Shown here piece by piece: positions 20,001 through 63,837 of a stretch of DNA of 64,000 bases. The stretch is from a virus, in the IMG/VR virus record IMGVR_UViG_3300045988_111426. One strand, written 5' to 3'. The notes under the pieces are model-generated. The model ran no database searches and was not told the origin of the DNA. It worked only from the letters and a program-made list of their open reading frames with translations. Positions within the stretch are counted from its first letter, which is position 1; every line of letters begins with the position of its first letter. The position numbers and the translations under genes are program-made.

Positions 20001-20848
20001 TACAGCCTTACTTGATCCTTTATATCGGAATCGACAGCATTGGCATCTGCAGTTAAAGTCTGAGGTATGTTTGCAATGGCCAGAGTTGGATCTCCATAAG
20101 CATGCTTCCCAATACCAAGACCAAATCTGTAATATCTCGTGCTGTTATTCGATTCCCCAGATGAAGGAATGAACTGACCAAGAAGTATACGATCGGCAGT
20201 TTGTAAAATATGGTCACGGACTGTAGAGTTTTCAATATCGGTGTTTATATGGAAAGCAGATCCACCTCCGCCAGTTGATCCACCTCCGCCTCCTCCAGTG
20301 CCTGGTGATGTTCCTCCACCACCACCTCCGCTCAGTGCTGAGTAGTTTATCTTTCTTGTAACAAATATCTCAGAATCAGTCACCGATTCGACAGTAAGCA
20401 GGTCACCATTTTTCGTGAATATAACATCACCCACACGATACTTCAGAAGTTCGATTCTTTCATTTTCCTTTTCTGGTGTATTGGGAATAGAAATCGAATA
20501 TGAGTTGTACTGTATTTCACGAAGGTCACTGGTGTTCATCTGTAGGAACTTGACGGACTGTGATGCTTGTACCACAGTGTTCCCATCACGCCCATCGCTA
20601 CCATCACGCCCAGGTTTACCGATCATCTTTATTCGTGATCCTTCAGCACCGAGAATTTCGGAATATTTCCCATCTGCTATGTTTCTAAGGATCAGAGTAG
20701 TCATGAAGTCCACAAGATCAGTTCTTTCATGCCTGAGTATCTGATCAAAGTTGTGGTTCAGTTTTTCTACAAGATTCAGTACAGAATCGTCTTGTTCTAT
20801 GCTGAACAGTGTCATATCTTGGATGTCAGTTCCGCTATATTTTCCCAT
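17072..20848 (-). CDS. giant tail-fibre-like virion protein
   Basis: 1258-aa ORF with GGTAAATAAGCAAATAT 13 nt upstream. Short collagen-like GKPGRDGSDGRDGN. Gly-rich linker SGGGGGGTSPGTGGGGGGSTGGGGS. Confidence 0.75.
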   Translation of the reverse strand: MGKYSGTDIQDMTLFSIEQDDSVLNLVEKLNHNFDQILRHERTDLVDFMTTLILRNIADGKYSEILGAEGSRIKMIGKPGRDGSDGRDGNTVVQASQSVKFLQMNTSDLREIQYNSYSISIPNTPEKENERIELLKYRVGDVIFTKNGDLLTVESVTDSEIFVTRKINYSALSGGGGGGTSPGTGGGGGGSTGGGGSAFHINTDIENSTVRDHILQTADRILLGQFIPSSGESNNSTRYYRFGLGIGKHAYGDPTLAIANIPQTLTADANAVDSDIKDQVRLYFRKNSQQSFDFVSPRHWASARYVDLYENDKSKGLVTGQRLRFSLENSDGEDTNQPFIELLTNKRTNDSHSTISTHTLSVIDRHNKRAVVIDNRQRFVIKSMIADFSKSILYTNERNDVLATEYETFSAPSIKTNTISPNSGTMVSIGSGNGLSADILKTKKLQGVSGAMSLSDNTVLTVDAGSDIRIGDTYIRQWISDTNSKVGELDRKSIKSNTLFSDIFVDVREQKLDLRTLGFGLFSPSDGKNMTISTNTLSKTGEGSSSNVYVSTFIKGDAGVFHNKYSPLHRLFGVFAIGDTDTFADTHYDTHETDKNTLIGIGAWGHGKLSSQSISLESVKSRKIADYEEYVKIPAFNLSGGNIDYSTITFPSQNKDEGWKKAGNVIVMKPSTNLISQSEKYVFESEKKVKTYYVKLHNEIYDDTRDKFKPVGFKIQDGWSCFEYDINDVSTYQKTIFDKVRVDVSDQTKNHIAGNRRGAGVPYGEGNIFSTIINYDAEGRPIKRKPGGNSMNNFMLNATSFMAFIGHYDAQNGSRGLLEYEDIKPAVYQDFVHEVQRNFYYMNAMDLIAEGMNSGSQRITPDKFQRVLVNGGTKCETFDSYIESKQNRRSRKTAFVFSPIKTRSIVKLSPFSDRSLNHVPCVMTTFINDHSVTDESQELLSNDMFSLKVVGDVVHMDIYVECSLLQVKKPSVSDFYAYQRHVYYTDAYEPGTDSSMALKTILFNSKLTECLDEWIMLDSMIGWAGRVLGGNKGHNAVYKKSHVHNVKLSDQTPLQESYGFSMSMLIPSIFMPVTDIMFSDNTTLYTDGMCKVSMTPFRDGRESIHGSMLKDVIQNRKANIDSNRIFRNVRFDDRLLEFSGYTSLYKKGVGYTQGYSADCGYAPNKQSYTSIVVEFENPNYIDKYSRESNLVDPQSGVKFKKISLTWVKPGISEMLERMQMSDRTRTGGFSLDNEISVEAQKIYGEEMYKQMEKYLDNE

Positions 20849-20861
20849 GCTTTTTCGGAGG

Positions 20862-20878
20862 ATATTTGCTTATTTACC
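20862..20878 (-). promoter_or_regulatory. late-type upstream motif GGTAAATAAGCAAATAT
   Basis: 13 nt upstream of the ATG of the 1258-aa gene. Identical 17-mer to the copy at 9983. Confidence 0.5.
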
Positions 20879-20890
20879 TTCCGAGAGCGG

Positions 20891-23800
20891 TTACACAAGA
20901 CCCACGGAAATGGTCATCTCAAGGTGAACATTTTCTATCGTATGGTGATGAATCTTTATGACGTTCTGATCGAGAGAAATTGAGAAATCTTTGACGACTT
21001 CACCATTTGAGAGCATCTTCGAATCCGAGATCTTGTAGAGCATTCCGATATTCTTTGCGCAATATTCTTCCACATAGACACGAGGATCGTCGATTGTGCC
21101 AAGACGATCAACGGCATCGATCATGTCCTGCTTGAACTTTTCCAAGAAAGAATCGATGAGGTTAATCTCGGAAGAATAGTTCCCTTGATCATCGACATTC
21201 CAATTCTCGACAGTGATCTCGAACGAATTGGGGAGGTTGAGGATCTTCGATGAGAACATACTCGTGAAATCTGCAAAGTGCTTAGATTTGTCATAAGGGA
21301 TAGATGTGTCGCCAAAAAGTGGGAGACTTGTGACCTTTAATGACTTATGGTCGTTGTATACGAACTCTGGGATTCGGATATCTCCGAGCACAAATGCAGT
21401 ATTCTCCTTGCGGATGTCGTAGTTGATCGTCTTGTCGAATGTGTCCTTAGAGTCATTGTAAGACATTCGATAATGGTCGATCATAGAAGAGACTTTCGGA
21501 TTGATAGCAGTCGATAGCTTACTGATCTTTGGATCATACTTTCCGCCATATCTCTTCATAGAGCCGAGATCAATAGGTCGGTGGAACTTGAACTGGAGGT
21601 CATCTTGTCTTCTATCTTCTGTATATGAGAAGTTGTTATTTTCTACTATCTCACGAAGAAGAGAGAAGTTGACAAACTCGTGCTGGAAATTGTGGAAGTT
21701 TTTACCACCACCAACGAGATACCACTTCAAGGACTTCTTCTTAGGATCTAACGATTGGATATGCTGTACAAGAGACTTTGGCGTAAGTGTGGTGATGGCT
21801 TCCATCGATGGCTTGTTTGCTTCAATATAAACAACACCATCATCAATCGTGAAGAACTCATGCGAGTTGTCCCATTTCTTGACTGATTTGCCGATAACGA
21901 TCGAATTGTGGTTATAGTCTTTGATTGTCAGAGATCCGTGCTTAAGATAAATCCCAAGAGAATCACACTTCAAGGATCTGAACATTACGAGATTCTTTCT
22001 ATTAGTTTCCAGATCTTCTTCCACACCGATTATCTCCATGAACGTTTTATCATCTTTCAGAGAGTACCATTCGTGAAGTTTACGTGGACTACCATTGATC
22101 ATAGCATCGATTTCAATAGAACTGTCGGTATAAGACACGAACCGCATATCGAGTTCTATACCAAACATCTGGTCATATTCCTGCATCTTGATAGTGTCAT
22201 TGTTCTGAGAATCGACACCAATCTTCAGAAGACCACTGACACCTTCAAAGTCGATTCTATCACCATCGATTATCTTCCCATCTTTAGACTTGGTGGATTG
22301 AGACCCCATTGTGTAAAGATTAAGGAAGGAGAGGTTGTTTTTCGATATCTTGTAGTCATTGTAAGAAATCGTACAGATCATGACGATATTCTTGAATCGA
22401 CGATTTCTTACAATGCGTATGGAAGATTGACCATTTGGATTTACGTTGAGGATCGAGGAGAATCTGTAACCGTCGATGTCGTTCTTGGAAGTGATACTAA
22501 TAAGCACACCTCTGAAGAAAGTGACATAGTCACCGACATTGTTCTTCGAGATTATCGACCAATTTTCGGAAGGATCAGTCTTTGAATATGCCCCATTTCT
22601 AAAGCTATAACCGAAGACAGTGAAGTATTCTTGGAAGTAGTCATAACTCGAGAAACAATACTTCAGTTCGTTGAATGGTTCAGAGAAGTATGATGACATT
22701 TTCCCATCTTCCTCCACGAGTGGATGTCTCGAAATTGGGAAGAACTCATGGGTGTAATACTTCGGATTAGGATAGGAGATGTTGAATGACGGAGAGAAGT
22801 TGTCAGTACCGAACTCTTCCGATACGTTCAGACGATACTCATCCAGACGTACATCTTTAAACTCAGAAACCCACTTACAGACGGACTGTAGAGAAACAAG
22901 AGGTCTCTTCTCATCAATCGATACGACATCATAACCGAGGAACTTTGACAAATCGGGATCTGTCTTCTGCTCTTCTGGTGTATATTGTCCAAGTTCAATG
23001 AGTATGTCGTTTCTCTTGGTCTTCGTCTTGAGCATGAAGTCGAAGTCACAAATGTCGATAAAGTTCACTACAGACAAGGTGAACTCGGTCTGATCATAAA
23101 CCTGTATGACGTTCTTTGTCTGATAGATTGGTGTGTCCGAGATTATGTCGAACATGTCAACATGTCGTCTCTTCTTGACGTGCTTGATTCGTTCGAAGTG
23201 ATTCCCATTCTTCACGTATTTGCCTACACAGTTGAGAGCATTAGAATGGGACATCATGAAGTTGTTATCACTTCTTGAGAATTTCTCATACAAGAGCGAA
23301 AGTGTTCCATCGGCAGAGGTTATCTCGAACTCAATAGAAGGTCTTGTTGAGTTTTCGACGATTATTCTATCGTGGTCATTATCCACGAAGACTTTCACAC
23401 CATACAGACGGAGAGCATCAACGACCCATTCAAGACACGAAGCAATTCTCTGAAGGACTTCTTCTTTAGATCCGAATGGGTTGTAATATGTCAAGAACCA
23501 TCCATCTCGAGACCATTTCTCATAACCATAGTCACCCCTTTCAAGATTCGAGAGTGTGTTGGAGAGTATCGTTTCTGATTCCTTACCATCAATGAAGATC
23601 TTTATAGACGTGTTGATCATCGGCTTTCGTGAAGCGTCGTAGATGATCTCGTTGTAAGCAGGTTCTTGCTCTTGATCTCCCTGCAAACGTATGTTGAAGA
23701 TATTCGTTGTTGTGTATTGTGGGAAATCTTTCTTTCGAAAGTTCTTGATATCAACAACTGCGTCATCAGTCTTCATAAGACAAAGATCGACATCTTTGAA

Positions 23801-24637
23801 GTTGTCTTGTATCTTCTGTATTACGACATCATTCAGATCGGAATAAAGATAAGTCGTGAGGTTTATGTCATCAGCATAAAGACCGAAGTAATTCTCATAC
23901 TTAAGTTCCGTTGAAGGATCATCAAACAAGAACTCGAAGTTGAAGAGCTTGTGGGATACAAGCGAATGTCTCTTGTAACCTTCAGTGATCCATTTGTCAA
24001 ACTCATAGACACTTTGAGCACCACCGACGAAGTCTTCGATTGATTCTGATACTTGAACAATTGATGATTTTTCCACCGATATACCAGTGTAAGTGACGTG
24101 TTTTTGTATGAAGTCGCATTGCACATGGGAATTTTGGAAAAGTGGGAAATCGGTGAGTTTCTCGAAGTACTTGCCTATTGGGGACTTATGAAGATCGATT
24201 ATCTTCAAGATTTGGCAGTCACGAAGTCTGTCCTTCTTCCCATCTGACTTGTAGATGATGAAGTACTTCGGAAGTTTTTCACCAATGTAAAGTGGGGCAA
24301 AAATCGAAAATTCCTCATCATAAAGCATCGACGTACATCTCTGAACTTTGTAAAGATAGGTCTGATCAACCATGTCCGCATATTTCTCATAGACATAACC
24401 ATCGGGTTTCGTGGGGGATTCGTAGAATATGTTCCGAGGAACATCAGCGAAAACTTTTGAGATATCATCAAAAGGTGCTGATGATACACTAAGTGGTTTC
24501 GTATAAGCTATGCTCGACAAGGTATCATTAACTGGTATTGTGGAAATCTGGAAATCTCCATCTGACTTCACTACAAACTTGATATTGCCAGTTAATAATG
24601 GGTTTGTTCTAACAATTGCTGATGATCTTTTAGACAT
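20891..24637 (-). CDS. large hypothetical virion protein
   Basis: 1248-aa ORF with TGTAAATAACGAAAC 12 nt upstream. No recognisable enzymatic motifs. Confidence 0.7.
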   Translation of the reverse strand: MSKRSSAIVRTNPLLTGNIKFVVKSDGDFQISTIPVNDTLSSIAYTKPLSVSSAPFDDISKVFADVPRNIFYESPTKPDGYVYEKYADMVDQTYLYKVQRCTSMLYDEEFSIFAPLYIGEKLPKYFIIYKSDGKKDRLRDCQILKIIDLHKSPIGKYFEKLTDFPLFQNSHVQCDFIQKHVTYTGISVEKSSIVQVSESIEDFVGGAQSVYEFDKWITEGYKRHSLVSHKLFNFEFLFDDPSTELKYENYFGLYADDINLTTYLYSDLNDVVIQKIQDNFKDVDLCLMKTDDAVVDIKNFRKKDFPQYTTTNIFNIRLQGDQEQEPAYNEIIYDASRKPMINTSIKIFIDGKESETILSNTLSNLERGDYGYEKWSRDGWFLTYYNPFGSKEEVLQRIASCLEWVVDALRLYGVKVFVDNDHDRIIVENSTRPSIEFEITSADGTLSLLYEKFSRSDNNFMMSHSNALNCVGKYVKNGNHFERIKHVKKRRHVDMFDIISDTPIYQTKNVIQVYDQTEFTLSVVNFIDICDFDFMLKTKTKRNDILIELGQYTPEEQKTDPDLSKFLGYDVVSIDEKRPLVSLQSVCKWVSEFKDVRLDEYRLNVSEEFGTDNFSPSFNISYPNPKYYTHEFFPISRHPLVEEDGKMSSYFSEPFNELKYCFSSYDYFQEYFTVFGYSFRNGAYSKTDPSENWSIISKNNVGDYVTFFRGVLISITSKNDIDGYRFSSILNVNPNGQSSIRIVRNRRFKNIVMICTISYNDYKISKNNLSFLNLYTMGSQSTKSKDGKIIDGDRIDFEGVSGLLKIGVDSQNNDTIKMQEYDQMFGIELDMRFVSYTDSSIEIDAMINGSPRKLHEWYSLKDDKTFMEIIGVEEDLETNRKNLVMFRSLKCDSLGIYLKHGSLTIKDYNHNSIVIGKSVKKWDNSHEFFTIDDGVVYIEANKPSMEAITTLTPKSLVQHIQSLDPKKKSLKWYLVGGGKNFHNFQHEFVNFSLLREIVENNNFSYTEDRRQDDLQFKFHRPIDLGSMKRYGGKYDPKISKLSTAINPKVSSMIDHYRMSYNDSKDTFDKTINYDIRKENTAFVLGDIRIPEFVYNDHKSLKVTSLPLFGDTSIPYDKSKHFADFTSMFSSKILNLPNSFEITVENWNVDDQGNYSSEINLIDSFLEKFKQDMIDAVDRLGTIDDPRVYVEEYCAKNIGMLYKISDSKMLSNGEVVKDFSISLDQNVIKIHHHTIENVHLEMTISVGLV

Positions 24638-54011: not shown

Positions 54012-54094
54012 CTGTATTCAAACATTGACCTTCCAGTCATATTCAGAAAAATTGACTGGAAAAATGACTGGAAATGTGTTATTAAACTATCACA

Positions 54095-54179
54095 TTAAAG
54101 GAAGGTACTTTCCTTGCACTCGAAATAGCCCGAGAATATGAAAATAGCGGAAAATGGATCAGAGTTCAAGGAAAGTACC
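54095..54179 (+). repeat. inverted-repeat element, copy 6 (locus unit A)
   Basis: TTAAAGGAAGGTACTTTCCTTGCACTC..GAATATGAAAATAGCGGA..GAGTTCAAGGAAAGTACC. Confidence 0.85.
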
Positions 54180-54353
54180 AAGGAAAGCCAAGGAGAGGTA
54201 TTCCGTGAGACTATGGGTCATCGTCCGAAGGCAATAGACCATTTCGAAGGATTATGGAAGACTATGGAAGACTATGAAAGACAATGACGATTGTTGAAAG
54301 ACAACGGAGGATTATCAAAGGATTATGAAGAGACAATAGTTCTGATTTGTTAA

Positions 54354-54438
54354 TTAAGACGAGGTACTTTCCTTGCGCTCTGAGATATTCAAGAATATGA
54401 AAATAGCGGAGACTATACTCGAGTTCAAGGAAAGTACC
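54354..54438 (+). repeat. inverted-repeat element, copy 7 (locus unit B)
   Basis: TTAAGACGAGGTACTTTCCTTGCGCTC..GAATATGAAAATAGCGGA..GAGTTCAAGGAAAGTACC. Confidence 0.85.
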
Positions 54439-54646
54439 TTCCTGTAATCAGGAGACATATTCTCGAGGATTATGGGTTTCTGTCGGAAGACAATCAAAGA
54501 CAATGACTGATTATGGAAAGACAATGATGATCATCAAAGGACTATTGAAAGACAATGACTAATCATCGAATACTATGAACGATAATCGGAAGACAATGAA
54601 GGATTATCAAAGGATTATTGAAAGAAAATGGCTAAAAATGGTCGAA

Positions 54647-54731
54647 TTAAAGAGAGGTACTTTCCTTGTCCTCGAAGACATTCAGTGGGGTAGAAATAGC
54701 GTCAAATAGATCAGAGCGCAAGGAAAGTACC
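54647..54731 (+). repeat. inverted-repeat element, copy 8 (locus unit C)
   Basis: TTAAAGAGAGGTACTTTCCTTGTCCTC..GTAGAAATAGCGTC..GAGCGCAAGGAAAGTACC. Confidence 0.85.
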
Positions 54732-55409
54732 TTCCTGTAATCAGAAGAGGTATTCTGTTGAATGGTGGGTTTCTGTCGGAAGACAATGACTATTGTCAAT
54801 GACTATGGAAAGACAATCGACTATGGAAAGACAATAGAGGATCGTGAAAAGATCATCAAAGACTTTGAAAGACAATCAAAGACAATAGCTGATTCTTTGA
54901 AGACTTTGGAATCTATTGATTAATCATTGAAAAGATCATCACTTCTTTGAAAATTTCTCTAAAGATTGATTGATAGACTGATGACTTTTGTCTGAATCAT
55001 AGATTTCCGCCCCTTTAATGATAATCGTTTTGAAGACAAAAGATGATCGTTAAATGGTTTTATTGTGGACGAGGATTGTTGAAAATCAAAATCAGTCTTT
55101 TTTGAATCCCAGAATAGACCAGAACAATTGAAAGAGACCATTGATGATTCCCGAGATATTTATGATTCTTGGAAAGACTATGATTCTTGGAAAGACAATG
55201 GAGGATTATTCAAAGAGAGATTGAAATTGAAAGATAATCATTCCAAGAACGGAGATTTGTTAAGAATTGTTAACTGATTTTGAATGGAAAGTTGAAAATT
55301 GGAGGATTCATCAGACAGATAATCATACAGATAATCAGATTATCCTCGGAATTTGCCGACAAACCGTGCGTATACACGAAACTTTAAAAAAACGCGCGAA
55401 TTCCCGTGT

Positions 55410-55438
55410 ATACCCGTATACGCATGCGGTATTTTTTT
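55410..55438 (+). terminator. terminator-like hairpin plus T7 run
   Basis: ATACCCG..CGGTAT stem followed by TTTTTTT. Confidence 0.35.
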
Positions 55439-55562
55439 CCAGTTTTATCGTAAATACAAAGTATTTACAACTGGTTTGGGGTCAGCCTTGGCACGATAGT
55501 GCCAAGCCAGGCTGCCCCAAACCATACATTGAGCGCAGAAACATGTCGTGCGCATGTTTTTA
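55439..55562 (+). ncRNA. candidate small structured RNA in the GC-rich core of the repeat locus
   Basis: Three consecutive hairpins: 55439-55474 (CCAGTT..GTAAATAC/GTATTTAC..AACTGG), 55473-55523 (about 21 bp, GC-rich, GGTTTGGGG..CCCCAAACC), and 55539-55559 (AAACATG/CATGTTT) followed by a T-run. No ATG-initiated ORF. Confidence 0.35.
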
Positions 55563-55799
55563 AATTTCCAGTTTAAACCAAAAGTACCAGGTGCGTGTTA
55601 GGGAACTTTAAAAAAACGCATGCGTGAAACTCCAAAAAAAGCGCACGCACGCAAAAAACTTTAAAAAAGACCTGTGTCAAATCCCCCGAACAGATTAACA
55701 CCTTTTAACACCTTAAAACCGATATTCTCTTTCCAAGATATTCCTCCCATAAGCCACAGAGACCATAACCCTCGAAAATATGTCTCCTTGGCTTTCCTT

Positions 55800-55884
55800 G
55801 GTACTTTCCTTGAACTCGAGTATAGTCTCCGCTATTTTCATATTCTCAGATATCTCAGAGCGCAAGGAAAGTACCTTCCTTTAA
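55800..55884 (-). repeat. inverted-repeat element, copy 9 (locus unit D, reverse)
   Basis: The reverse complement reads TTAAAGGAAGGTACTTTCCTTGCGCTC..GAATATGAAAATAGCGGA..GAGTTCAAGGAAAGTACC. Confidence 0.85.
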
Positions 55885-56087
55885 TTCAATTATTTTCGAT
55901 CATTGTCTCGATAGTCATTGATGATCTTCCATTGTCCTTCATTATTGTCATAGTCTTTTGATAATCCTTGGAAATAACCATTGTTTTCGGAAGATGATTC
56001 ATAAACCTCAAAAATGTTCAGAATCGATATTCCCATGTGAACCGAGGAGACCATAATAATCAGAAAATACTCTCCTTGGCTTTCCTT
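55885..56087 (-). repeat. same short-repeat family in reverse orientation (CATTGTC cores)
   Basis: CATTGTCTCG, CATTGTCCTT, TATTGTCATAG and CCATTGTTTTC lie between units D and E. Confidence 0.6.
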
Positions 56088-56172
56088 GGTACTTTCCTTG
56101 CGCTCTGATCTATTTTCCGCTATTTTCATATTCTTGAACCTCTCAGAGCGCAAGGAAAGTACCTCTCTTTAA
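56088..56172 (-). repeat. inverted-repeat element, copy 10 (locus unit E, reverse)
   Basis: The reverse complement reads TTAAAGAGAGGTACTTTCCTTGCGCTC..GAATATGAAAATAGCGGA..GAGCGCAAGGAAAGTACC. Confidence 0.85.
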
Positions 56173-56239
56173 AGCGTATCAATTGATAATACACTTTAAC
56201 ACATTTCTTCAATCTTCAATCATCCCTCAAACAACAATC

Positions 56240-56306
56240 CGCCAATCTCCGATGAATTGGTTCTTTTTGATAAAAAAGAACCAATTCATCGGAGATTGGC
56301 GTTTTT
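56240..56306 (+). terminator. exceptionally long hairpin plus T-run at the right edge of the repeat locus
   Basis: CGCCAATCTCCGATGAATTGGTTCTTTTT-GA-TAAAAAAGAACCAATTCATCGGAGATTGGCG (about 30 bp with one mismatch) followed by TTTTT. Confidence 0.6.
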
Positions 56307-56447: not shown

Positions 56448-56520
56448 GATTTCATAGCTCAACAGGTAGAGCACTGCACTTTTAATGCAGGGGTTGTGGG
56501 TTCGATCCCCACTGGAATCA
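56448..56520 (+). tRNA. tRNA-Lys (anticodon UUU)
   Basis: 73 nt. Acceptor GATTTCA/TGGAATC, D arm GCTC-AACAGGTA-GAGC, anticodon arm CTGCA-CTTTTAA-TGCAG, T arm GTGGG-TTCGATC-CCCAC. Confidence 0.9.
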
Positions 56521-56541
56521 CAAAAAAGAACAAGAAACACA

Positions 56542-57087
56542 ATGCAAATCTTCGAAGATTACAAATTGGTGACTTTCTTCACTGGTTCGGACATTTTTAG
56601 CAACTTCTATAAGTCTGAGATCGATTATAATGGGATGACTTTCCATTGCGGTGAATCGTTGTTCATGTTCTTGAAAGCGAAGTACTTCGGTGATGAAGAT
56701 ATCGCAATGGAAATCCTCAAGAACTCTGATAGTCCTCGTTTTTGTAAAGAGCTTGGAAGACTTGTTCGAAACTTCGAAGATGGAAAATGGTCATCTGTCA
56801 GATATGACGTGATGCTCTTTGTAGTTCTCATGAAGCTAAGATCTTCCAAGACAATCAGAGATCACTACACACAACTGATAGATGAAGGTTATGAGTTTGT
56901 AGAAGCCAGTCCTTATGACAAAATCTGGGGGTGTGGACTTGCAGAAAATGATCTTCGTATCTTGGACAAATCAAAGTGGAGAGGATCGAATCTTCTTGGT
57001 ACGGTTTACAACAATGTTCACGAGATTCTGGATAATGATTCATTGAGAGATCTTTCGGATGTTTTTGGATACAGTAAAACGTTCTAA
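56542..57087 (+). CDS. NADAR / YbiA-like (DUF1768) protein
   Basis: Start moved to the ATG at 56542 because the track start lies inside tRNA-Lys. FFTGSDIFSNFY..MTFHCGESLFMFLKAKYF..PRFCKELGR..W..VEASPYDKIWGCGL matches the YbiA/NADAR pattern. Confidence 0.65.
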   Translation: MQIFEDYKLVTFFTGSDIFSNFYKSEIDYNGMTFHCGESLFMFLKAKYFGDEDIAMEILKNSDSPRFCKELGRLVRNFEDGKWSSVRYDVMLFVVLMKLRSSKTIRDHYTQLIDEGYEFVEASPYDKIWGCGLAENDLRILDKSKWRGSNLLGTVYNNVHEILDNDSLRDLSDVFGYSKTF

Positions 57088-57156
57088 AAACGTCTTTTAT
57101 AAGATTTCTGAAAAGGTTCATTAATTAATAATCACTCTTTGTTCAATTGAACAAAT

Positions 57157-57230
57157 GTTCCAATAGCTCAGTCGGTAAGAGCAACTGACTCATAATCAGT
57201 AGGTCGTAGGTTCAATCCCTACTTGGAACA
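57157..57230 (+). tRNA. tRNA-Met/Ile2 (anticodon CAU)
   Basis: 74 nt. Acceptor GTTCCAA/TTGGAAC, D arm GCTC-AGTCGGTAA-GAGC, anticodon arm ACTGA-CTCATAA-TCAGT, T arm GTAGG-TTCAATC-CCTAC. Confidence 0.9.
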
Positions 57231-57243
57231 CTCAAGAAAAAAT

Positions 57244-58248
57244 ATGAACAATCTGGAAAAGGGTTCAATCTCAAATCTCATCATGCATAACACAGCTCCC
57301 TCTTGTTATGATGTTTTTGTTGCAAACGATGAGGTGGAAATTGGTGAAGGGAAAACTGTCTCTCGAAAAGCAGTTTTCCATGTGGAGACACCACGTTCAT
57401 TGGGTGATGAAAATGAACTGTCTATCGACTGCACAGAAGAGACCATGACTGGGAATGAGGATGTCTATTATAAGACCTATCTGTATGAAGGTGGTAAGTA
57501 CATTGATAGGTCAGAGAAACTACATGATGATGTTTATGAATGTGTTTCCTATGCTATGCGAAAGATCTTTGAGAGATGCAAGGAACACAGTGATAAATTC
57601 ACCCCAGAGTTTGACTTCGAAATCCAATATGCAAGTTATGATAACGACGACGATTGTGTCCGCTGGATCTCTGCTGTAACACCTTGTGATGAAAGCACAA
57701 TCCTTGGATATGTCAATGTAGGATATAGGACTGTTGCACACCGCATCTGCAATGCATACCAAACAATCAATAGCCACTTCGATAAATCAACACAAGATTG
57801 CGTTACTCCACATATCGGTTTATATGAATCCATCATATTTTATAGAAGGCTCTATGATGGAAAATGGGGAGATTACACAGATTCAGACAGACCTAAAGTG
57901 AACCTCAATGCATATCTGAAGAAGTCCACCATCACTGATGATATAATCTTAACATGTTACGGATGTCTAGGGATTGGCGGAAAGATAAAAGATTTTCATC
58001 ATAATCTAGGCGAAGATCATAACAATGCTGTTTCCGAAGCATGTAATATCATCACCCATCATATCCTCAATGAATACTTCTTCTCATCCCCTCCAAGGAT
58101 GATTATCAGATCAATCGAGAAGTATAAACACATGGTGACTTTTGAAGGTGTGGATATTGGTTATTTCTTGTTTGCAAGAAGAGAAGATGCGATCACCTTC
58201 TTGACCTTCTTCGGGACGGCGGTTAGAAATCAGTTAGAGAAACAATAA
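57244..58248 (+). CDS. hypothetical Cys/His-rich protein
   Basis: The ATG at 57244 (MNNLEKGS...) gives 334 aa. The track start overlaps tRNA-Met. Confidence 0.65.
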   Translation: MNNLEKGSISNLIMHNTAPSCYDVFVANDEVEIGEGKTVSRKAVFHVETPRSLGDENELSIDCTEETMTGNEDVYYKTYLYEGGKYIDRSEKLHDDVYECVSYAMRKIFERCKEHSDKFTPEFDFEIQYASYDNDDDCVRWISAVTPCDESTILGYVNVGYRTVAHRICNAYQTINSHFDKSTQDCVTPHIGLYESIIFYRRLYDGKWGDYTDSDRPKVNLNAYLKKSTITDDIILTCYGCLGIGGKIKDFHHNLGEDHNNAVSEACNIITHHILNEYFFSSPPRMIIRSIEKYKHMVTFEGVDIGYFLFARREDAITFLTFFGTAVRNQLEKQ

Positions 58249-58261
58249 AAATACCAACAAA

Positions 58262-58477
58262 ATGTTTCGATTAATTCTCATAGACAAAGGCAGGGCACCT
58301 CTTCAAGTTATAAAGTGCCTAATGGATCATCTTCGTATTTCACTTAGCTTCGCTATGGAACTTGTTCGTCAGAATGAACCAGTTCTTTATGAAACGGAAG
58401 ATAAGCAGGACATCCTTGATCTTGAGGAAAAGTTGAAGAAGTTTTGCGCTGTTACAAAAATCGTAAACGACAATTAG
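58262..58477 (+). CDS. miniprotein resembling the ribosomal protein L7/L12 C-terminal domain
   Basis: 71 aa. FRLILIDKGRAPLQVIKCLMDHLRISLSFAMELVRQNEPVLYETEDKQDILDLEEKLKKFCAVTKIV parallels the L12 CTD [66 protein letters not shown]. Confidence 0.45.
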   Translation: MFRLILIDKGRAPLQVIKCLMDHLRISLSFAMELVRQNEPVLYETEDKQDILDLEEKLKKFCAVTKIVNDN

Positions 58478-58484
58478 ACGAGTT

Positions 58485-58709
58485 ATGCTTGAAGAATATG
58501 AACAGAGGAGACGGAAAGCTCTGAAGAGCTATGAAAGGTTCAAAGAGGTCACTTTGAAGCAACTCGATTTCATCCAGTCTCTGGAATTTGAGAAGTTGTC
58601 ACCAGATGAGAAGTTCTTTCAGCAGACTAAGTACGAATACATGCACGGCTATCTTCGCTGTCTGAGACTGGAATTCGATAGGATCTTAGCAGAAGAAAAA
58701 GATCTGTAA
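58485..58709 (+). CDS. hypothetical helical miniprotein
   Basis: 74-aa ORF that ends 15 nt before the tnpB ATG. Confidence 0.5.
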   Translation: MLEEYEQRRRKALKSYERFKEVTLKQLDFIQSLEFEKLSPDEKFFQQTKYEYMHGYLRCLRLEFDRILAEEKDL

Positions 58710-58724
58710 TGGTTGATCATAAGC

Positions 58725-59867
58725 ATGTTAAGAGCAATTAAAGTAAGGTTATATCCAAACAAAGCGCAGGAACAAGAACTTAACAAGGTTCTTGGTGCTT
58801 ATCGTTTTGTCTATAACCACATGCTCGATAAAAGAAAGACTGCTTATGAAACTGACAAGACAAGTCTAAGCGAAAACGATCTATCAAAGTACTTCCATGG
58901 AACATTGCTGAAAGATGAACAACATGTTTGGATAAAAGAACAGAACACAAAGGTGATGAACCAAGCAATCAAACAGATGGTCGGTGCTTATCAAAACTTC
59001 TTCAATCATCATAAAGGATTTCCAAAGTTTAAATCAAAGAAAGACAAACAATCGGCATTGTTTCCTCGTAATGCCATTTCAAAGAGGAACACTTTCGAAA
59101 CGAAGCACATAACTTTAATCACTTCCCTTAAGAACCTCAGATTCCGTTGTTCTGACTTATATCACAAACGCTTGCAGAAATACAAGGACAACATAAGAAG
59201 CGCAACTCTCTCGAAAACCAAGAGTGGGAATTTCTTCTTGTCGATTCTTGTAGACATTCCCGAAGCGGAATTTGTGAAATTCGGAAAGACCAACAAACAA
59301 GTTGGTATTGACCTTGGCGTGAAAGATTTCGTTATAACCTCCGATGAAACTGTGTTTGAAAACAAACACTTCTTCAAGAAGGAGGAAAAGAAGATGATCA
59401 AACTTCAACGTCAATTATCCAGAAAGGTCAAAGGTTCAAACAATAGGAACAAACAGAGAATCAGACTTGCAAAAGTGATTGCGAATATAACGAACAAGAA
59501 AGAGAACTACATCCACTCAGTTGTGAACGAGATATTGAAATCATACGACACGGTGTTCATGGAAGACTTGAATATTAAAGGGATGCTTGGAAATCGTTAT
59601 CTTGCGAATGCTATCCAAGAGTCTGGATTTTATCGGTTCAAGTCGATATTGCAATATAAGGCTCTTATGAATGATAAGCGAGTTGTTCTTATCAATAGGT
59701 TCTATCCAAGTTCAAAGACTTGTTCGTGTTGTGGTTACAAGAAGAAAGACTTGAAACTCGGTGATAGGTTTTGGACTTGTCCCGAATGTGGTGAATATCA
59801 CGACAGAGATATAAACGCTTCGAAGAACATTCTTTTTGAAGGACAAAGAAAACTTCGAACTGGCTAA
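58725..59867 (+). CDS. tnpB: TnpB (OrfB_IS605-type RuvC nuclease), no associated TnpA
   Basis: MLRAIKVRLYPNKAQEQELNKVLGAYRFVYNHML is a typical TnpB N-terminus. RuvC-I GIDLGVKDF, RuvC-II VFMEDLNIKGM, Zn ribbon CSCCG..CPECG, RuvC-III HDRDINASKNI. Confidence 0.85.
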   Translation: MLRAIKVRLYPNKAQEQELNKVLGAYRFVYNHMLDKRKTAYETDKTSLSENDLSKYFHGTLLKDEQHVWIKEQNTKVMNQAIKQMVGAYQNFFNHHKGFPKFKSKKDKQSALFPRNAISKRNTFETKHITLITSLKNLRFRCSDLYHKRLQKYKDNIRSATLSKTKSGNFFLSILVDIPEAEFVKFGKTNKQVGIDLGVKDFVITSDETVFENKHFFKKEEKKMIKLQRQLSRKVKGSNNRNKQRIRLAKVIANITNKKENYIHSVVNEILKSYDTVFMEDLNIKGMLGNRYLANAIQESGFYRFKSILQYKALMNDKRVVLINRFYPSSKTCSCCGYKKKDLKLGDRFWTCPECGEYHDRDINASKNILFEGQRKLRTG

Positions 59868-60140
59868 GATATAAAAAAGATGAATAGGTGTTCGTAACAC
59901 CGAATTTACGCTTGCGGACTGCTCTCTTATGGATGACCGAACCTCGTGTTCCTAAAAAGTAATGGTAGGTTGAAACAAGAAGTGAGAACTGGATAAAACG
60001 CAGATTTTTCACATACGATAAGGCTTTTACACATCCAAGGGAAGATTTGTCGATAGGTATGAAGCTTGTAAAATAGCCAAAGAATCTGGCCAAATAGAGG
60101 TCGATGATGAAAATATGGTTCTTTACTCGGAAGACCTCTA
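59800..60140 (+). ncRNA. candidate omega (re)RNA scaffold plus guide of TnpB; boundaries not determined
   Basis: A 289-nt ORF-free tail follows tnpB. Hairpins GGTGTTCGTAACACC at 59887-59901 and AGAGGTC..GACCTCT at 60096-60139. By analogy, omega RNAs span the tnpB 3' end and the downstream region. Confidence 0.3.
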
Positions 60141-60156
60141 CTGAATCACAAGATCA

Positions 60157-60624
60157 ATGATTAGTCCTACAGAGTTTTACGAAGGTCTTGATAAAGGTGA
60201 ATATAAGACGAATATCAAGATATATCAATCATCACAGACATTGGACTACAATGGAAGTCCAATGTTTGAGGTTGAAATAACAACAACAAAAACACGGATG
60301 CCTATCAAAGACGATCCTTACGATAGTCCCTATGAGTTCAAGCTCACGATAAAAAGGAATCAACGAGAAATCAACGATTTTATCACACATGTAAAGTTGG
60401 TTAGCTTACGTTGGAAATCATCTGAAGAGGTTGATAAAACCGTTGCTAAATTGGAACGGCTTATAAACGATTTCACTAATGCTTGCTATGGCTATCAAAA
60501 TGGAGAGTACAACTCAAGATCGGACTATTACGCATATCTAACATTGCGAGGTTGTTATGAATATCTAAGCTCGTACTTTGATGATTTACAATATGTCTAC
60601 GATGCTTATATTGTACGGACTTAA
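60157..60624 (+). CDS. hypothetical protein
   Basis: 155-aa ORF between tnpB and the methyltransferase. Confidence 0.6.
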   Translation: MISPTEFYEGLDKGEYKTNIKIYQSSQTLDYNGSPMFEVEITTTKTRMPIKDDPYDSPYEFKLTIKRNQREINDFITHVKLVSLRWKSSEEVDKTVAKLERLINDFTNACYGYQNGEYNSRSDYYAYLTLRGCYEYLSSYFDDLQYVYDAYIVRT

Positions 60625-60681
60625 TAAGTCTGTCACACACAAATCCCTAAACAGAAGAATAGTTAAAACTTGAATCGAAAC

Positions 60682-61635
60682 ATGGTAAGGAAGGCAACTA
60701 ATAAGTTACTTCAGAAGGCTAAAAAGCAGAAGAACGACGAGTTCTATACGCAACTTATTGACATCGAGAGAGAATTGCGACATTATGAAAGCTATTTTAA
60801 GGGGAAAGTTGTGTATTGCAATTGTGATGATCCTTTGACGGGTAACTTTTTCAGATACTTCGTTTCTAACTTCAAAGCATTAGGACTTAAGAAGGTGATC
60901 GCATCTTGTTATAAGGAAAACGGTCATGGCTTTTTCTTTGAATACACAGGGACAGAACTTGCTGATGCAGATCCAAAGACCGCCAATGTTGTCTACTTCA
61001 AGGGCGATGGCGACTTTCGTAGCCAAGAAAGTATTGCCTTACTGGAACAATCTGACATAGTTGTTACCAATCCACCATTTTCGTTGTTCCGTGAGTATGT
61101 TGCACAATTAACAAGATATGATAAGCTCTTTCTCATTATTGGGAATATCAACGCCATCACTTATAAAGAGATTTTCAAGCTCATTCAAGATGGTAAGGTA
61201 TGGCTTGGTGTGAATATTGCGAGAGGAATTTCTGGGTTTGTTGTACCAGCTCATTATGAACTCTACGGAACAGAAACAAGGATAGACGAATCTGGTAACA
61301 GGGTTGTATCTACCAACAATTGTCTGTGGCTTACGAATTTGGACAATTTTACGCATCGTAAAGAGATCTCGCTTACCAAAAGCTACTATGGGCACGAACA
61401 TGAATATCCCAAATACGACAATTATGATGGTATAAATGTTGATAAGACTAAGAACATACCACGAGATTACAGTGGTTATATGGGAGTTCCGATAACATTC
61501 TTACATAAATTCGATCCACGCCAATTTGAGATTGTGGGTTCCAGAAAGGGAAACGATGGGAAATGTTTATCTGTGAATGGGAAATGTTCTTATTTTAGGA
61601 TAATCATCAAGAAGAAACAAACTACGACTAAATGA
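60682..61635 (+). CDS. N6-adenine DNA methyltransferase, EcoRI-methylase-like family
   Basis: The ATG at 60682 gives 317 aa. NDEFYTQLIDIERELRHYESYFKGKVVYCNCDDP plus catalytic IVVTNPPFSLFREYV (NPPF). No cognate nuclease recognised nearby. Confidence 0.75.
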   Translation: MVRKATNKLLQKAKKQKNDEFYTQLIDIERELRHYESYFKGKVVYCNCDDPLTGNFFRYFVSNFKALGLKKVIASCYKENGHGFFFEYTGTELADADPKTANVVYFKGDGDFRSQESIALLEQSDIVVTNPPFSLFREYVAQLTRYDKLFLIIGNINAITYKEIFKLIQDGKVWLGVNIARGISGFVVPAHYELYGTETRIDESGNRVVSTNNCLWLTNLDNFTHRKEISLTKSYYGHEHEYPKYDNYDGINVDKTKNIPRDYSGYMGVPITFLHKFDPRQFEIVGSRKGNDGKCLSVNGKCSYFRIIIKKKQTTTK

Positions 61636-61709
61636 TCTGATCAATAGAGATCAATGATGATAAAAAGAAGGAAACGAAACCGATAGGAAGATCAAATAAT
61701 AAGACTTAT

Positions 61710-63218: not shown

Positions 63219-63250
63219 GCATATTGGGATTAAAATCAAGATTTGTTGAA

Positions 63251-63344
63251 TTAAAGAGAGGTACTTTCCTTGTCCTCGAAGATATCTGAGAATATGAAAA
63301 TAGCGGAAACTATACTCAAGCTCAAGGAAAGTACCTCTCTTTAA
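63251..63344 (+). repeat. inverted-repeat element, copy 11 (most symmetric copy)
   Basis: TTAAAGAGAGGTACTTTCCTTG ... GAATATGAAAATAGCGGA ... CAAGGAAAGTACCTCTCTTTAA, with 22-bp perfect terminal inverted repeats. Confidence 0.85.
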
Positions 63345-63360
63345 TCAGGAGAGTACTTTC

Positions 63361-63837
63361 TCATTTAAAGAACTTCTCTGTCACGAAGAGATATTTCCAA
63401 CCTCTCTCTGCACAGAACTTTTCTGCAGATCTTCTCTTTACTTCTACATTCAGATTTGTCTGTAGTTCTCGGCTATATGTCGATTTCGATTTCTTTGCAC
63501 TTCTCTTAGGAATCTGAGTTTGAGAGTAAGGTTTTACTTCTATGAGGAACGTTTTAAGTTCTCCCTTCACTCTCATCTGCATCCAAAAATCTGGGTAGTA
63601 AGTCCTCTGTTTTTGCATCATTGGATCGAAATACGAGATCTTTGTGTCGGGATGTTCGTATGTCCACTTTTCTACATTCGGATTCGCATCAATAAGTCGC
63701 ATGAACTTGAGTTCTAAAGATGATCTGTACGGAACACCTTCTTTGTTGAGATGTCCAACAAACTTGTCCTTATTGGTTGGAATGTAGTAACCTTGTTTAT
63801 ATCCTCTTGTGTTATTAGGATTTGGATTCTGTAGCAT
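63361..63837 (-). CDS. PD-(D/E)xK nuclease-fold protein (TnsA-N / T4 gp4 head-completion-like)
   Basis: 158 aa. YRSSLELKFMRLIDANPNV..YYPDFWM..FLIEVKP matches the TnsA-N-type D..E-x-K arrangement. Confidence 0.5.
   Translation of the reverse strand: MLQNPNPNNTRGYKQGYYIPTNKDKFVGHLNKEGVPYRSSLELKFMRLIDANPNVEKWTYEHPDTKISYFDPMMQKQRTYYPDFWMQMRVKGELKTFLIEVKPYSQTQIPKRSAKKSKSTYSRELQTNLNVEVKRRSAEKFCAERGWKYLFVTEKFFK

What the first reader, a model, noticed from the sequence alone, without database searches (positions are those of the whole stretch)
58725..60156. Catalytically intact TnpB embedded in a phage operon without a transposon context, with a 289-nt structured downstream tail
The ORF has the full TnpB layout and all three RuvC acidic residues (GIDLG, MEDL, DRDINAS), so it does not look like a nuclease-dead TldR-type derivative. 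There is no TnpA (Y1 or serine recombinase) anywhere in the window. The upstream ORF ends only 15 nt before the start, which leaves no room for a left end. TTGAT does occur at 58713-58717, matching the ISDra2 TAM, but that may be coincidence. Downstream is 289 nt of ORF-free sequence with hairpins, which is where an omega RNA scaffold plus guide would lie. A fixed, non-mobile TnpB with a fixed guide in a virulent-type phage could be an RNA-guided nuclease used against the host, competing phages or mobile elements. It could also serve homing-type maintenance of the island. The adjacent orphan N6A methyltransferase may be functionally linked.
Basis: partly seen in the sequence, partly recalled or inferred. 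Interest (0 to 1): 0.75.

Follow-up and report, generated by a model that had tools for sequence, protein, structure and literature searches.

The report
Transposase-less TnpB guide-RNA cassette in phage
An oral phage carries an intact RNA-guided nuclease gene (TnpB) with its guide-RNA scaffold but no transposase and no left transposon end; it has replaced the front of a small phage gene that close relatives still have whole, so it looks like a selfish, homing-type gene cassette, not an ordinary insertion sequence or a fixed phage weapon.

Summary
58725-59867 encodes a 380-aa TnpB with all three RuvC acidic residues and the zinc finger. No TnpA was found in the window, and no Y1 TnpA within ±6 kb of 71 related copies.

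The 289-nt tail has two main parts. A ~135-nt omega-RNA scaffold (59883-60017) has stems that covary across 33 copies. Then comes the promoterless 3' remnant (60022-60144) of a 92-aa phage gene ("ORF92").

At least seven related ~150-kb phage contigs carry ORF92 full length and no tnpB. Four others carry the cassette. Neighbouring small genes, including the methyltransferase, assort independently of tnpB.

Copies in other contexts share homology only from the ATG to a sharp ...TACG end. There is no conserved left end or TAM. The window's TTGAT is not conserved in its closest orthologues.

tnpB is under purifying selection (dN/dS 0.06-0.15). The guide is not conserved, and its best database match is intact ORF92 in a tnpB-less relative.

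Best reading: a transposase-independent, selfish TnpB-omega cassette that spreads by recombination or homing in a hyperplastic, tRNA-rich phage region. Cleavage, TAM and RNA ends are untested.

Verdict: a new variant of a known kind, of moderate interest.

The parts
58709..58712 (+). Relic start of the disrupted gene ORF92 (ATGG). It overlaps the TAA stop of ORF74, as in empty-site relatives (ctgTAATGGaaagg...).
   Evidence: Compared with L074, L079, L080 and L082, where ORF92 starts at this position.
58713..58724 (+). 12-nt relic (TTGATCATAAGC) of an earlier left flank that travelled with the cassette. It contains the non-conserved TTGAT.
   Evidence: L001 and L014 have ATAATCAATCATAGGC or ATAATCAATCATAAGT here, and L002 has ATAATCAATCATAAGC. 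The same sequence is the native region upstream of the ORF92 ATG in empty L073/L075 (caatcaatcataggtaATG).
58725..59867 (+). tnpB coding sequence (380 aa plus stop). RuvC D196/E280/D362, zinc finger C333-C336 and C352-C355.
   Evidence: Pfam; alignment to ISDra2 TnpB structures; dN/dS 0.06-0.15 against 10 relatives.
58773..58794 (+). Covarying hairpin inside the tnpB coding sequence (CAAGAAC-ttaacaag-GTTCTTG). Role unknown.
   Evidence: 42 copies: 92.5% of cells paired versus 81% in shuffles, 0 of 500 shuffles as high. The central pair is CG 20 / AU 17 / UA 3.
59883..60017 (+). Omega-RNA scaffold (right end of the element), ending in the conserved ...TTTCAYRTACG.
   Evidence: nhmmer profile hit at 59883-60016, E 2e-33. 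Four helices are 98.7% paired with 45 double-sided changes versus 14.7 in shuffles. Homology between copies stops here.
60018..60037 (+). Predicted guide (ATAAGGCTTTTACACATCCA). The boundary is uncertain by about ±2 nt and the length is inferred.
   Evidence: Its position immediately 3' of the scaffold end follows established TnpB biology. It matches intact ORF92 of L075/L078 at 17 of 18 positions from +3.
60022..60144 (+). 3' remnant (40 codons plus stop) of the 92-aa phage gene ORF92. It has no start codon.
   Evidence: Translation GFYTSKGRFVDRYEACKIAKESGQIEVDDENMVLYSEDLY*. Full-length ORF92 is present in L074, L075 and L078-L082.

Best explanation
**What it is.** This is a TnpB-omega RNA cassette that has lost, or never had, the transposon parts of an IS200/IS605 element. 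It has no TnpA, no left end and no TAM-flanked boundary. It sits in a hyperplastic, tRNA-rich region of a ~150-kb phage from a human oral metagenome.

**Shown**
- The nuclease is intact and under purifying selection.
- About 135 nt of covarying scaffold follow the gene and end sharply at TACG.
- The cassette replaces the first ~155 nt of a small phage gene (ORF92), with the tnpB ATG placed where the ORF92 ATG was.
- Closely related phages carry ORF92 full length instead.
- The flanks of filled genomes are mosaics of different empty-type backbones.

**Inferred**
1. tnpB is transcribed with the rightward operon and translated from the initiation region it captured.
2. TnpB binds and processes the 3' part of its own mRNA into an omega RNA. 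The guide would be the first ~16-20 nt of the ORF92 remnant.
3. The ribonucleoprotein cuts the matching sequence in intact ORF92 of co-infecting tnpB-less relatives.
4. Its own genome is spared because the scaffold end, not a TAM, precedes that sequence.
5. The break is repaired from the tnpB-bearing genome. This copies the cassette in (homing without a transposase) or simply handicaps the competitor.

New sites would be reached by recombination that drags bits of the old left flank along, not by peel-and-paste transposition.
For: **Intact TnpB**
-.

**Purifying selection**
- It holds even among syntenic orthologues: dN/dS 0.12-0.15 at dS 0.25-0.58.

**Scaffold**
- Covariation is strong and the 3' boundary is sharp.

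**No transposase and no left end**
- No Y1 TnpA in 931 kb (window plus 77 loci).
- No conserved sequence at -40..-1 in 29 contexts, and no similarity between the left and right ends.

**Empty and filled alleles**
- Alleles are 87-95% identical in the flanks. L073-L075 and L078-L082 are empty (L078 looks like the same phage as L075). The window, L001, L014, L002 and L083 are filled.
- Full-length ORF92 cannot be regenerated from the filled allele, so the empty alleles are ancestral.

**Mosaic flanks**
- The window's remnant is 91% identical to empty L075 but 75% to filled L001. The L001 remnant is 90% identical to empty L079.
- A 16-nt relic of a different backbone travels with the cassette.

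**Same architecture at two other loci**
- The tnpB ATG abuts a target gene's 5' UTR, and the right end abuts that gene's start (L005 versus L012; L015 type versus L091-L101).

**Family distribution**
- The family is essentially phage-borne and multicopy, often within tRNA arrays.

**Guide**
- The only near-exact guide match in IMG/VR is ORF92 of a tnpB-less relative.

**Literature**
- 'Non-restorative homing' by TnpB into phages or plasmids has been proposed in theory (PMC13565253).
Against: - No RNA, cleavage or homing data exist for this family.
- The TAM is unknown. No consistent motif precedes guide-matching sites in empty alleles, so the present guide may be unable to direct cleavage.
- The right junction has been remodelled. 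Compared with L002/L083 there is a 53-nt deletion next to the scaffold. The current guide may therefore be an accident of deletion.
- Mosaic flanks are also what ordinary phage recombination produces, with no nuclease needed.
- The covarying hairpin inside the coding sequence could be a transposase-recognition hairpin, which would point to mobilisation in trans.
- Only ±6 kb around related copies was examined, along with 64 kb of this genome. A TnpA elsewhere in the phage or in the host is not excluded.
Confidence: 0.55

Rival explanations
1. It is an ordinary IS200/IS605 (IS1341-type) insertion that has decayed. The left end and part of the target were lost by deletion. The gene is now an immobile passenger on its way to becoming a pseudogene.
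For: - The TnpB and right-end/omega architecture are canonical.
- Deletions next to the element are evident: the L002 junction versus the window junction, and the missing 5' part of ORF92.
- Degraded copies exist in relatives. L063, L065 and L066 are truncated at about aa 183, and L037 has a stop at codon 3.
Against: - dN/dS is 0.12-0.15 among orthologues that already share the end-less left junction.
- Lack of a left end is family-wide, not specific to this copy.
- Nearly all of the 120 best homologues keep a length of 379-381 aa.
- The cassette is found on several different backbones.
Confidence: 0.15
2. It is a non-autonomous IS605-type element mobilised in trans by a Y1 TnpA from the host or elsewhere in the phage. 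Its left-end hairpin would lie inside the tnpB coding sequence, so the element starts at or just before its own start codon.
For: - A covarying hairpin lies at +49..+70 of the coding sequence, with compensatory changes across amino-acid-changing codons.
- The 3' boundary is sharp and conserved.
- Many copies sit in different sites.
- At the L015-type locus the insertion causes no target loss.
Against: - No Y1 TnpA was found in 931 kb around copies.
- Only one related tnpB was found in 185,579 species genomes.
- The hairpin does not resemble anything at the right end.
- Inserts carry variable lengths of foreign upstream sequence: 12-16, ~55-75, ~88 and 116 nt. Some are bracketed by repeats of target sequence. 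Peel-and-paste transposition does not produce either feature.
Confidence: 0.12
3. It is a domesticated phage weapon or regulator. A fixed TnpB-guide pair would be kept to cut or bind host DNA, other mobile elements or unrelated phages for the phage's benefit.
For: - Purifying selection acts on tnpB.
- The gene sits within a co-oriented phage operon.
- TnpB-family genes are common in phages: 428 INPHARED records match (PMC12607003).
Against: - The guide region is not conserved among orthologues and is a drifting pseudogene remnant.
- Every copy in the family has a different flank, and therefore a different guide.
- About half of close relatives lack the cassette.
- The only near-exact guide match in IMG/VR is the phage gene ORF92.
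- RuvC is intact, so it is not a TldR-like repressor.
Confidence: 0.1

Closest known systems
ISDra2 TnpB-omega RNA (IS200/IS605 family; structures 8EXA, 8BF8, 8H1J)
   Same: - Same domain layout and catalytic D/E/D plus zinc finger.
- Full-length alignment at E 1e-54.
- A structured guide-RNA scaffold lies at the 3' end, followed by flank-derived guide sequence.
   Different: - No TnpA partner, no left end and no TTGAT TAM at the boundary.
- The scaffold lies wholly downstream of the stop codon.
- At this locus the element removed part of its target gene.
Solo / IS1341-type tnpB elements (non-autonomous IS605 relatives)
   Same: tnpB without an adjacent tnpA. Multiple diverged copies per genome in relatives.
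   Different: - Those elements still have recognisable left and right ends and rely on a TnpA in trans.
- Here homology starts at the start codon.
- The family is almost confined to phages.
Free-standing homing endonuclease genes of T4-like phages (Seg and Mob; SegB acts in the tRNA region)
   Same: - A presence/absence polymorphism between close relatives at one locus.
- Location in a hyperplastic, tRNA-rich region.
- Mosaic flanks and no discrete element ends.
- The predicted target lies in the allele lacking the gene (concept in PMC13565253).
   Different: - The nuclease is RNA-guided (RuvC), not GIY-YIG or HNH.
- Target choice would follow from whatever lies 3' of the scaffold.
- No homing has been demonstrated.
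TldR (nuclease-dead TnpB-like transcription factors)
   Same: TnpB-derived and lacking a transposase. Some are prophage-encoded (PMC10705468).
   Different: TldR proteins have lost RuvC residues and keep a conserved guide to a promoter. Here RuvC is intact and the guide is not conserved.
TnpB homologues of Prevotella Lak megaphages
   Same: They are the closest matches among deposited phage genomes: 50% identity over 99% of the protein, with several copies per genome.
   Different: They are unannotated and uncharacterised, and only 50% identical. Much closer relatives (76-93%) exist only in metagenomic phage contigs.

Membership tests
TnpB (RNA-guided RuvC nuclease, OMEGA system) | HTH/REC, RuvC and zinc-finger domain layout with catalytic D, E, D | tested here: met
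   Three Pfam domains. D196/E280/D362 align with ISDra2 D191/E278/D361, and the CxxC...CxxC motif is present.
TnpB (RNA-guided RuvC nuclease, OMEGA system) | Conserved structured omega-RNA scaffold at the 3' end, followed by a variable guide | tested here: met
   33 copies give four helices that are 98.7% paired, with 0 of 500 shuffles reaching the observed covariation. Homology ends at ...TACG and the flanks differ.
TnpB (RNA-guided RuvC nuclease, OMEGA system) | RNA-guided, TAM-dependent DNA cleavage | not testable with these tools
   This needs RNA-seq, a TAM-library screen and cleavage assays.
IS200/IS605 transposon (including IS1341-type) | Left end with a subterminal hairpin upstream of the genes, bounded by a TAM or target motif | tested here: not met
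   Homology between copies starts at the ATG. No conserved column at -40..-1 in 29 contexts. No similarity between the left and right ends. TTGAT is not conserved in orthologues.
IS200/IS605 transposon (including IS1341-type) | Y1 (HUH) TnpA in the element or in the same genome | tested here: not met
   None among 42 window ORFs. None by tblastn in the window plus 77 loci, 931 kb in all. Complete genomes and the host could not be examined.
IS200/IS605 transposon (including IS1341-type) | Insertion 3' of the target motif without loss or duplication of target DNA | tested here: not met
   About 155 nt of ORF92 are missing at this locus. Other loci show carried-over upstream DNA and short flanking repeats.
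IS200/IS605 transposon (including IS1341-type) | Hairpin usable as a transposase recognition site | tested here: inconclusive
   There is a covarying hairpin inside the coding sequence at 58773-58794. It has no counterpart at the right end, and no transposase is available to test it.
Free-standing homing endonuclease gene (works like, not a sequence family) | Filled and empty alleles at one locus among closely related genomes | tested here: met
   Five filled contigs and at least seven empty ones, 87-95% identical in the flanks.
Free-standing homing endonuclease gene (works like, not a sequence family) | The nuclease target is present in the empty allele and absent or protected in the filled allele | tested here: inconclusive
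   The guide matches intact ORF92 of L075/L078 at 17 of 18 positions from +3. In the filled allele the scaffold end precedes that sequence. The TAM is unknown.
Free-standing homing endonuclease gene (works like, not a sequence family) | Nuclease-dependent biased inheritance in mixed infection | not testable with these tools
   This is experimental only.
TldR (nuclease-dead TnpB-derived regulators) | Loss of RuvC catalytic residues and a conserved guide to a promoter | tested here: not met
   RuvC is intact and the guide varies among orthologues.

The most novel reading that the evidence does not exclude
This TnpB lineage, found almost only in large oral and gut phages, may have become a transposase-independent, RNA-guided homing endonuclease gene.
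- The cassette begins at its own start codon. It lands at the start of a phage gene and takes over that gene's expression signals.
- It uses the displaced gene's sequence as its guide to cut genomes that lack it.
- It would thus be the RNA-guided counterpart of the T4 Seg and Mob endonucleases, and a natural case of 'non-restorative homing'.
Probability: 0.35. Interest if true: 0.8.

Novelty: new variant of a known kind. Interest (0 to 1): 0.5.

Why it matters
TnpB is well understood as a helper that keeps IS200/IS605 transposons in place after TnpA excises them. What the many tnpB genes without a transposase do, especially the many in phages, is still open.

This locus offers a concrete natural test case:
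- filled and empty alleles from closely related phages;
- a defined scaffold/guide junction;
- a defined candidate target, the intact ORF92 gene.

A simple cleavage and homing experiment could show whether a TnpB can spread, or exclude rival phages, with no transposase at all. If it can, RNA-guided homing would join protein-guided homing as a force shaping phage mosaicism. It would also be a plausible intermediate between a transposon accessory gene and a stand-alone Cas12-like system.

Tried and rejected
1. **Close phage genome.** A megablast of 57200-61700 against INPHARED found nothing.
2. **Rfam.** No omega-RNA-like family, even at E ≤ 10.
3. **Exact look-up of homologues.** P0001 and P0003 were not on record. 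The window's own protein was found, and it gave the source contig.
4. **TAM inference.** I compared the sequence 5' of guide matches in four filled/empty locus pairs and found no consistent motif. TTGAT was rejected because it is not conserved.
5. **ATAG motif.** A possible ATAG upstream of the ATG turned out to be subfamily-specific and partly due to shared ancestry.
6. **Left end resembling the right end.** No similarity in general. It appears only where a cassette sits behind a truncated older scaffold (L017, L022).
7. **Thermodynamic support for a structured tail.** Not significant.
8. **Promoter and terminator scans.** At chance level.
9. **Host-borne parent IS.** Only one relative, at 63% identity, in 185,579 species genomes, on a Prevotella-labelled scaffold.
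10. **Pfam family for ORF92.** None.
11. **Minus-strand ORF 59692-60093 (133 aa).** It overlaps the 3' end of tnpB, the covarying scaffold and part of the ORF92 remnant. I did not test it and assumed it is spurious.
12. **Literature.** I found no experimental study of TnpB homing in phages.
Full report
**The observation**

The ORF at 58725-59867 (+) encodes a 380-aa protein with the three Pfam domains of TnpB: HTH_OrfB_IS605, OrfB_IS605 and Cas12f1-like_TNB. It aligns over its whole length with the solved ISDra2 TnpB structures 8BF8, 8EXA and 8H1J (E 1e-54). D196, E280 and D362 fall on the catalytic D191, E278 and D361, and both CxxC pairs of the zinc finger are present.

The upstream ORF (58485-58709, 74 aa) stops 15 nt before the ATG. 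TTGAT is at 58713-58717, and 59868-60156 is 289 nt without a listed + strand ORF.

Pfam scans of 42 substantial ORFs of the window found no Y1 or serine recombinase. A tblastn with IS608 TnpA found nothing. That query is sound: it found 121 phage records in INPHARED. The window holds no second copy of the gene or of its downstream RNA.

The window comes from a human oral metagenome contig of 71 kb (ERR589411). It belongs to a group of uncultivated phages of about 150 kb, judged by the lengths of related contigs. These phages have no close relative among deposited phage genomes. Functional annotation is sparse: ligase, helicase and an SbcC-like protein.

**What the tail is**

Seventy-one related loci were fetched from IMG/VR. 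Copies that sit in unrelated contexts share similarity with the window only from the ATG (58725, ±5 nt) to about 60017. All copies end in a conserved ...TTTCAYRTACG, after which the sequences diverge completely.

Within that stretch, 59883-60017 is a conserved non-coding module. An alignment of 33 copies gives four helices:
- 98.7% of cells are paired;
- there are 45 double-sided (compensatory) changes, against 14.7 in shuffles;
- 0 of 500 shuffles reach the observed covariation;
- slid controls collapse.

This is the omega-RNA scaffold. On its own the window sequence does not fold better than shuffled sequence (z = +0.77), and Rfam has no matching family. The evidence for structure is therefore comparative, not thermodynamic.

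60022-60144 is an open frame without a start codon (GFYTSKGRFVDRYEACKIAKESGQIEVDDENMVLYSEDLY*). It is the 3' end of a 92-aa phage gene that I call ORF92. This gene is full length in related contigs.

**Filled and empty alleles**

| State | Contigs | Note |
|---|---|---|
| Empty (full-length ORF92, no tnpB) | L073, L074, L075, L078, L079, L080, L081, L082 | L073 has an in-frame TGA at ORF92 codon 18; L078 looks like the same phage as L075 |
| Filled (cassette present) | window, L001, L014 (same contig as L084), L002, L083 | |

The empty contigs are 87-95% identical to the window in the flanking genes.

The junctions read as follows.
- Empty genomes: ...ctgTAATGGaaagg... (ORF74 stop overlapping the ORF92 start), or ...aatcataggtaATGgaacg... 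where ORF74 is absent.
- The window: ...ctgTAATGG|TTGATCATAAGC|ATG(tnpB).
- L001: TAATGG|ATAATCAATCATAGGC|ATG (L014 differs at two positions).
- L002...ATAATCAATCATAAGC|ATG.

The 12-16 nt in front of the tnpB ATG are the native sequence found in front of the ORF92 ATG in the ORF74-less backbones. So the tnpB ATG took the place of the ORF92 ATG in one backbone. The cassette later arrived in ORF74-bearing backbones with that scrap of old flank attached.

The window's TTGAT lies inside this scrap. It corresponds to TCAAT in L001, L014 and L002. It is therefore neither ancestral nor conserved.

On the right side:
- L002 and L083 resume ORF92 at about codon 35 (...catacgat|ACGACATATTC...).
- The window, L001 and L014 have a further 53-nt deletion (...catacgat|aaggcttttacac...).

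ORF92's 5' part is absent from filled genomes. The empty alleles therefore cannot derive from the filled ones and must be ancestral.

**Independence from neighbours**

A presence/absence table for seven relatives shows that ORF341, ORF74, tnpB, ORF155 and the EcoRI-like methyltransferase each come and go independently.
- The methyltransferase is present in three tnpB-less genomes.
- It is absent from two tnpB-bearing genomes.
- In L001 it is swapped in order with ORF155.

There is no support for a functional link with tnpB. The region is a typical hyperplastic phage region flanked by tRNA genes.

**Mosaicism**

Within the ORF92 remnant, the window is 91% identical to empty L075/L078 but only 75% identical to filled L001. 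L001 is 90% identical to empty L079. L001 and L014 share only the first ~35 nt after the junction.

So the same cassette junction sits on different ORF92 backgrounds. Recombination breakpoints lie within tens of nucleotides of the junction. Repeated homing would produce this pattern, but so would ordinary phage recombination.

**The family**

- Hundreds of proteins 76-91% identical occur on contigs of ~150 kb and ~250 kb, several per contig. Some sources name them 'endonuclease [Caudoviricetes]' or 'putative transposase'.
- One contig has three copies within 6 kb, and relatives place them inside arrays of 16-19 tRNA genes.
- A scan of one genome per 185,579 prokaryotic species found a single relative at 63% identity, on a Prevotella-labelled scaffold.
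- The best deposited phage matches are Prevotella Lak megaphages at 50%.
- No Y1 TnpA lies within ±6 kb of any copy.
- In 29 independent contexts nothing is conserved at -40..-1 except A-richness. The upstream DNA does not resemble the right end, except where a cassette sits behind a truncated older scaffold.
- tnpB is under clear purifying selection: dN/dS 0.06-0.15, and 0.12-0.15 among the orthologues that already share the end-less junction.
- A few copies are degraded.

**Other insertion sites**

Two further loci could be resolved, and they show the same layout.
- L005 versus L012: the tnpB ATG sits where the target gene's ATG is in the empty allele, and about 10 nt of the target are lost.
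- L015-type locus, with five filled and seven empty relatives: tnpB is preceded by a diverged copy of the downstream gene's own upstream region. The right end stops 3-4 nt before that gene's ATG. Empty alleles are unusually variable exactly at that point.

Elsewhere the insert carries 55-116 nt of foreign upstream DNA, or is bracketed by 11- or ~27-nt repeats of target sequence. These features do not fit peel-and-paste transposition, which inserts 3' of a fixed motif with no loss or gain of target DNA. They do fit recombination-based spread.

**An unexplained feature**

A 7-bp hairpin inside the coding sequence (58773-58794) covaries across 42 copies, including across amino-acid-changing codons. 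It is 92.5% paired, 0 of 500 shuffles are as high, and the central pair is CG 20 / AU 17 / UA 3. It could be a DNA hairpin for a transposase acting in trans, an RNA element, or protein-level covariation. I could not decide between these.

**Mechanism**

*Shown:* an intact, selected TnpB; its covarying scaffold; a sharp right end; no left end and no TnpA in what could be examined; replacement of the 5' part of ORF92; filled/empty polymorphism; mosaic flanks.

*Inferred from established TnpB biology* (Karvelis 2021; Meers 2023; Nety 2023, as cited in the papers read):
1. The mRNA 3' region is processed into an omega RNA.
2. Its guide is the first ~16-20 nt after 60017 (ATAAGGCTTTTACACATCCA).
3. 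The complex cuts TAM-flanked matches.

The only near-exact match in IMG/VR is intact ORF92 of the tnpB-less phage L075. It matches at 17 of 18 positions from +3. The filled genome has the scaffold end in front of the same sequence, so it should be immune.

I therefore favour a selfish homing or exclusion role in mixed infections. This has been proposed in theory as 'non-restorative homing' (PMC13565253). I found no experimental demonstration in phages.

The weak points are:
- the unknown TAM;
- the possibility that the current guide arose from a deletion and is non-functional;
- the absence of any RNA or cleavage data.

**Rivals**
1. A decaying IS remnant is disfavoured by purifying selection and by the family-wide architecture.
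2. Trans-mobilisation by an unseen TnpA stays possible because of the coding-sequence hairpin. It is disfavoured by the junction types and the absence of TnpA.
3. A domesticated weapon with a fixed guide is disfavoured because guides are not conserved and half the relatives lack the cassette.
4. A TldR-like regulator is excluded by the intact RuvC.

**Verdict**

- Supported: an intact nuclease, no transposon context, and a homing role is plausible.
- Not supported: TTGAT as the TAM, a fixed and non-mobile element, a host-directed role, and linkage to the methyltransferase.

TnpB genes in phages are already known to be common (PMC12607003). This is therefore a new variant of a known kind, not a new kind. 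It has moderate interest because it offers a clean natural system for testing transposase-free, RNA-guided homing.

Noticed in passing
window 54090-56300 and 63239-63353: An ORF-poor stretch is packed with a family of ~90-125-nt repeats in both orientations. They share a palindromic core (GGTACTTTCCTTG...CAAGGAAAGTACC) and sit alongside short GGAAAGACAAT-type direct repeats. The repeats are conserved in relatives L001, L002, L014, L073 and L075. They could be an origin with iterons, or regulatory cassettes that mediate module shuffling.
   Followed up: partly
window 63361-63837 (-): A 158-aa ORF carries a TnsA-like endonuclease N-terminal domain (PF08722, E 1.8e-14). It is 92-96% conserved in the six ~150-kb relatives compared. 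It is a second nuclease-like gene in the same variable region.
   Followed up: no
window 58773-58794: A covarying 7-bp hairpin lies inside the tnpB coding sequence, with compensatory changes across non-synonymous codons in 42 copies. Its function is unknown.
   Followed up: partly
L011 4687-4837; L065 4066-4216; L030 864-1009; L022 5882-5994: Omega-RNA scaffolds occur without an adjacent tnpB. One truncated scaffold sits directly in front of another tnpB ATG. L017 also has scaffold-like sequence upstream. These could be stand-alone guide RNAs or leftovers of nested insertions.
   Followed up: partly
L037 2718-8703; L011 and L029 whole loci: Three tnpB copies lie within 6 kb; the middle one has a stop at codon 3. 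The family is embedded in arrays of 16-19 tRNA genes. In L037 the right end abuts tRNA-Asp (6052-6127), so that guide would be the tRNA 5' sequence.
   Followed up: partly
L011 11053-11126: A tRNA with anticodon TTA, which would read the UAA stop codon, occurs in a ~250-kb relative. This hints at stop-codon suppression or recoding in that phage group.
   Followed up: no
L073 about 4041-4043 (ORF92 codon 18): The otherwise full-length ORF92 of this empty-site phage has an in-frame TGA where relatives have TGC. ORF92 may be dispensable.
   Followed up: no
L091, L094, L096, L098-L101 (empty alleles of the L015-type locus), the ~10 nt before TTTATGAAAAAG: Empty alleles are nearly identical on both sides but differ sharply at the cassette's insertion or target point (ggttaaATG / gggataTTG / gggatatag / gggaaatcg). 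This may reflect escape mutations or repair scars.
   Followed up: no
window 56485-57087 and 56448-57231: A NADAR-domain protein (E 4e-32) overlaps tRNA-Lys at its 5' end and lies upstream of tRNA-Met. Its 5' end overlaps the tRNA-Lys gene by about 36 nt if the first ATG is used.
   Followed up: no
window 433-7455 (-), 17072-24637 (-): Three very large ORFs (2340, 1258 and 1248 aa) are present. Only the first matches a PHROG, one of unknown function (phrog_14959). The other two have no PHROG match.
   Followed up: no
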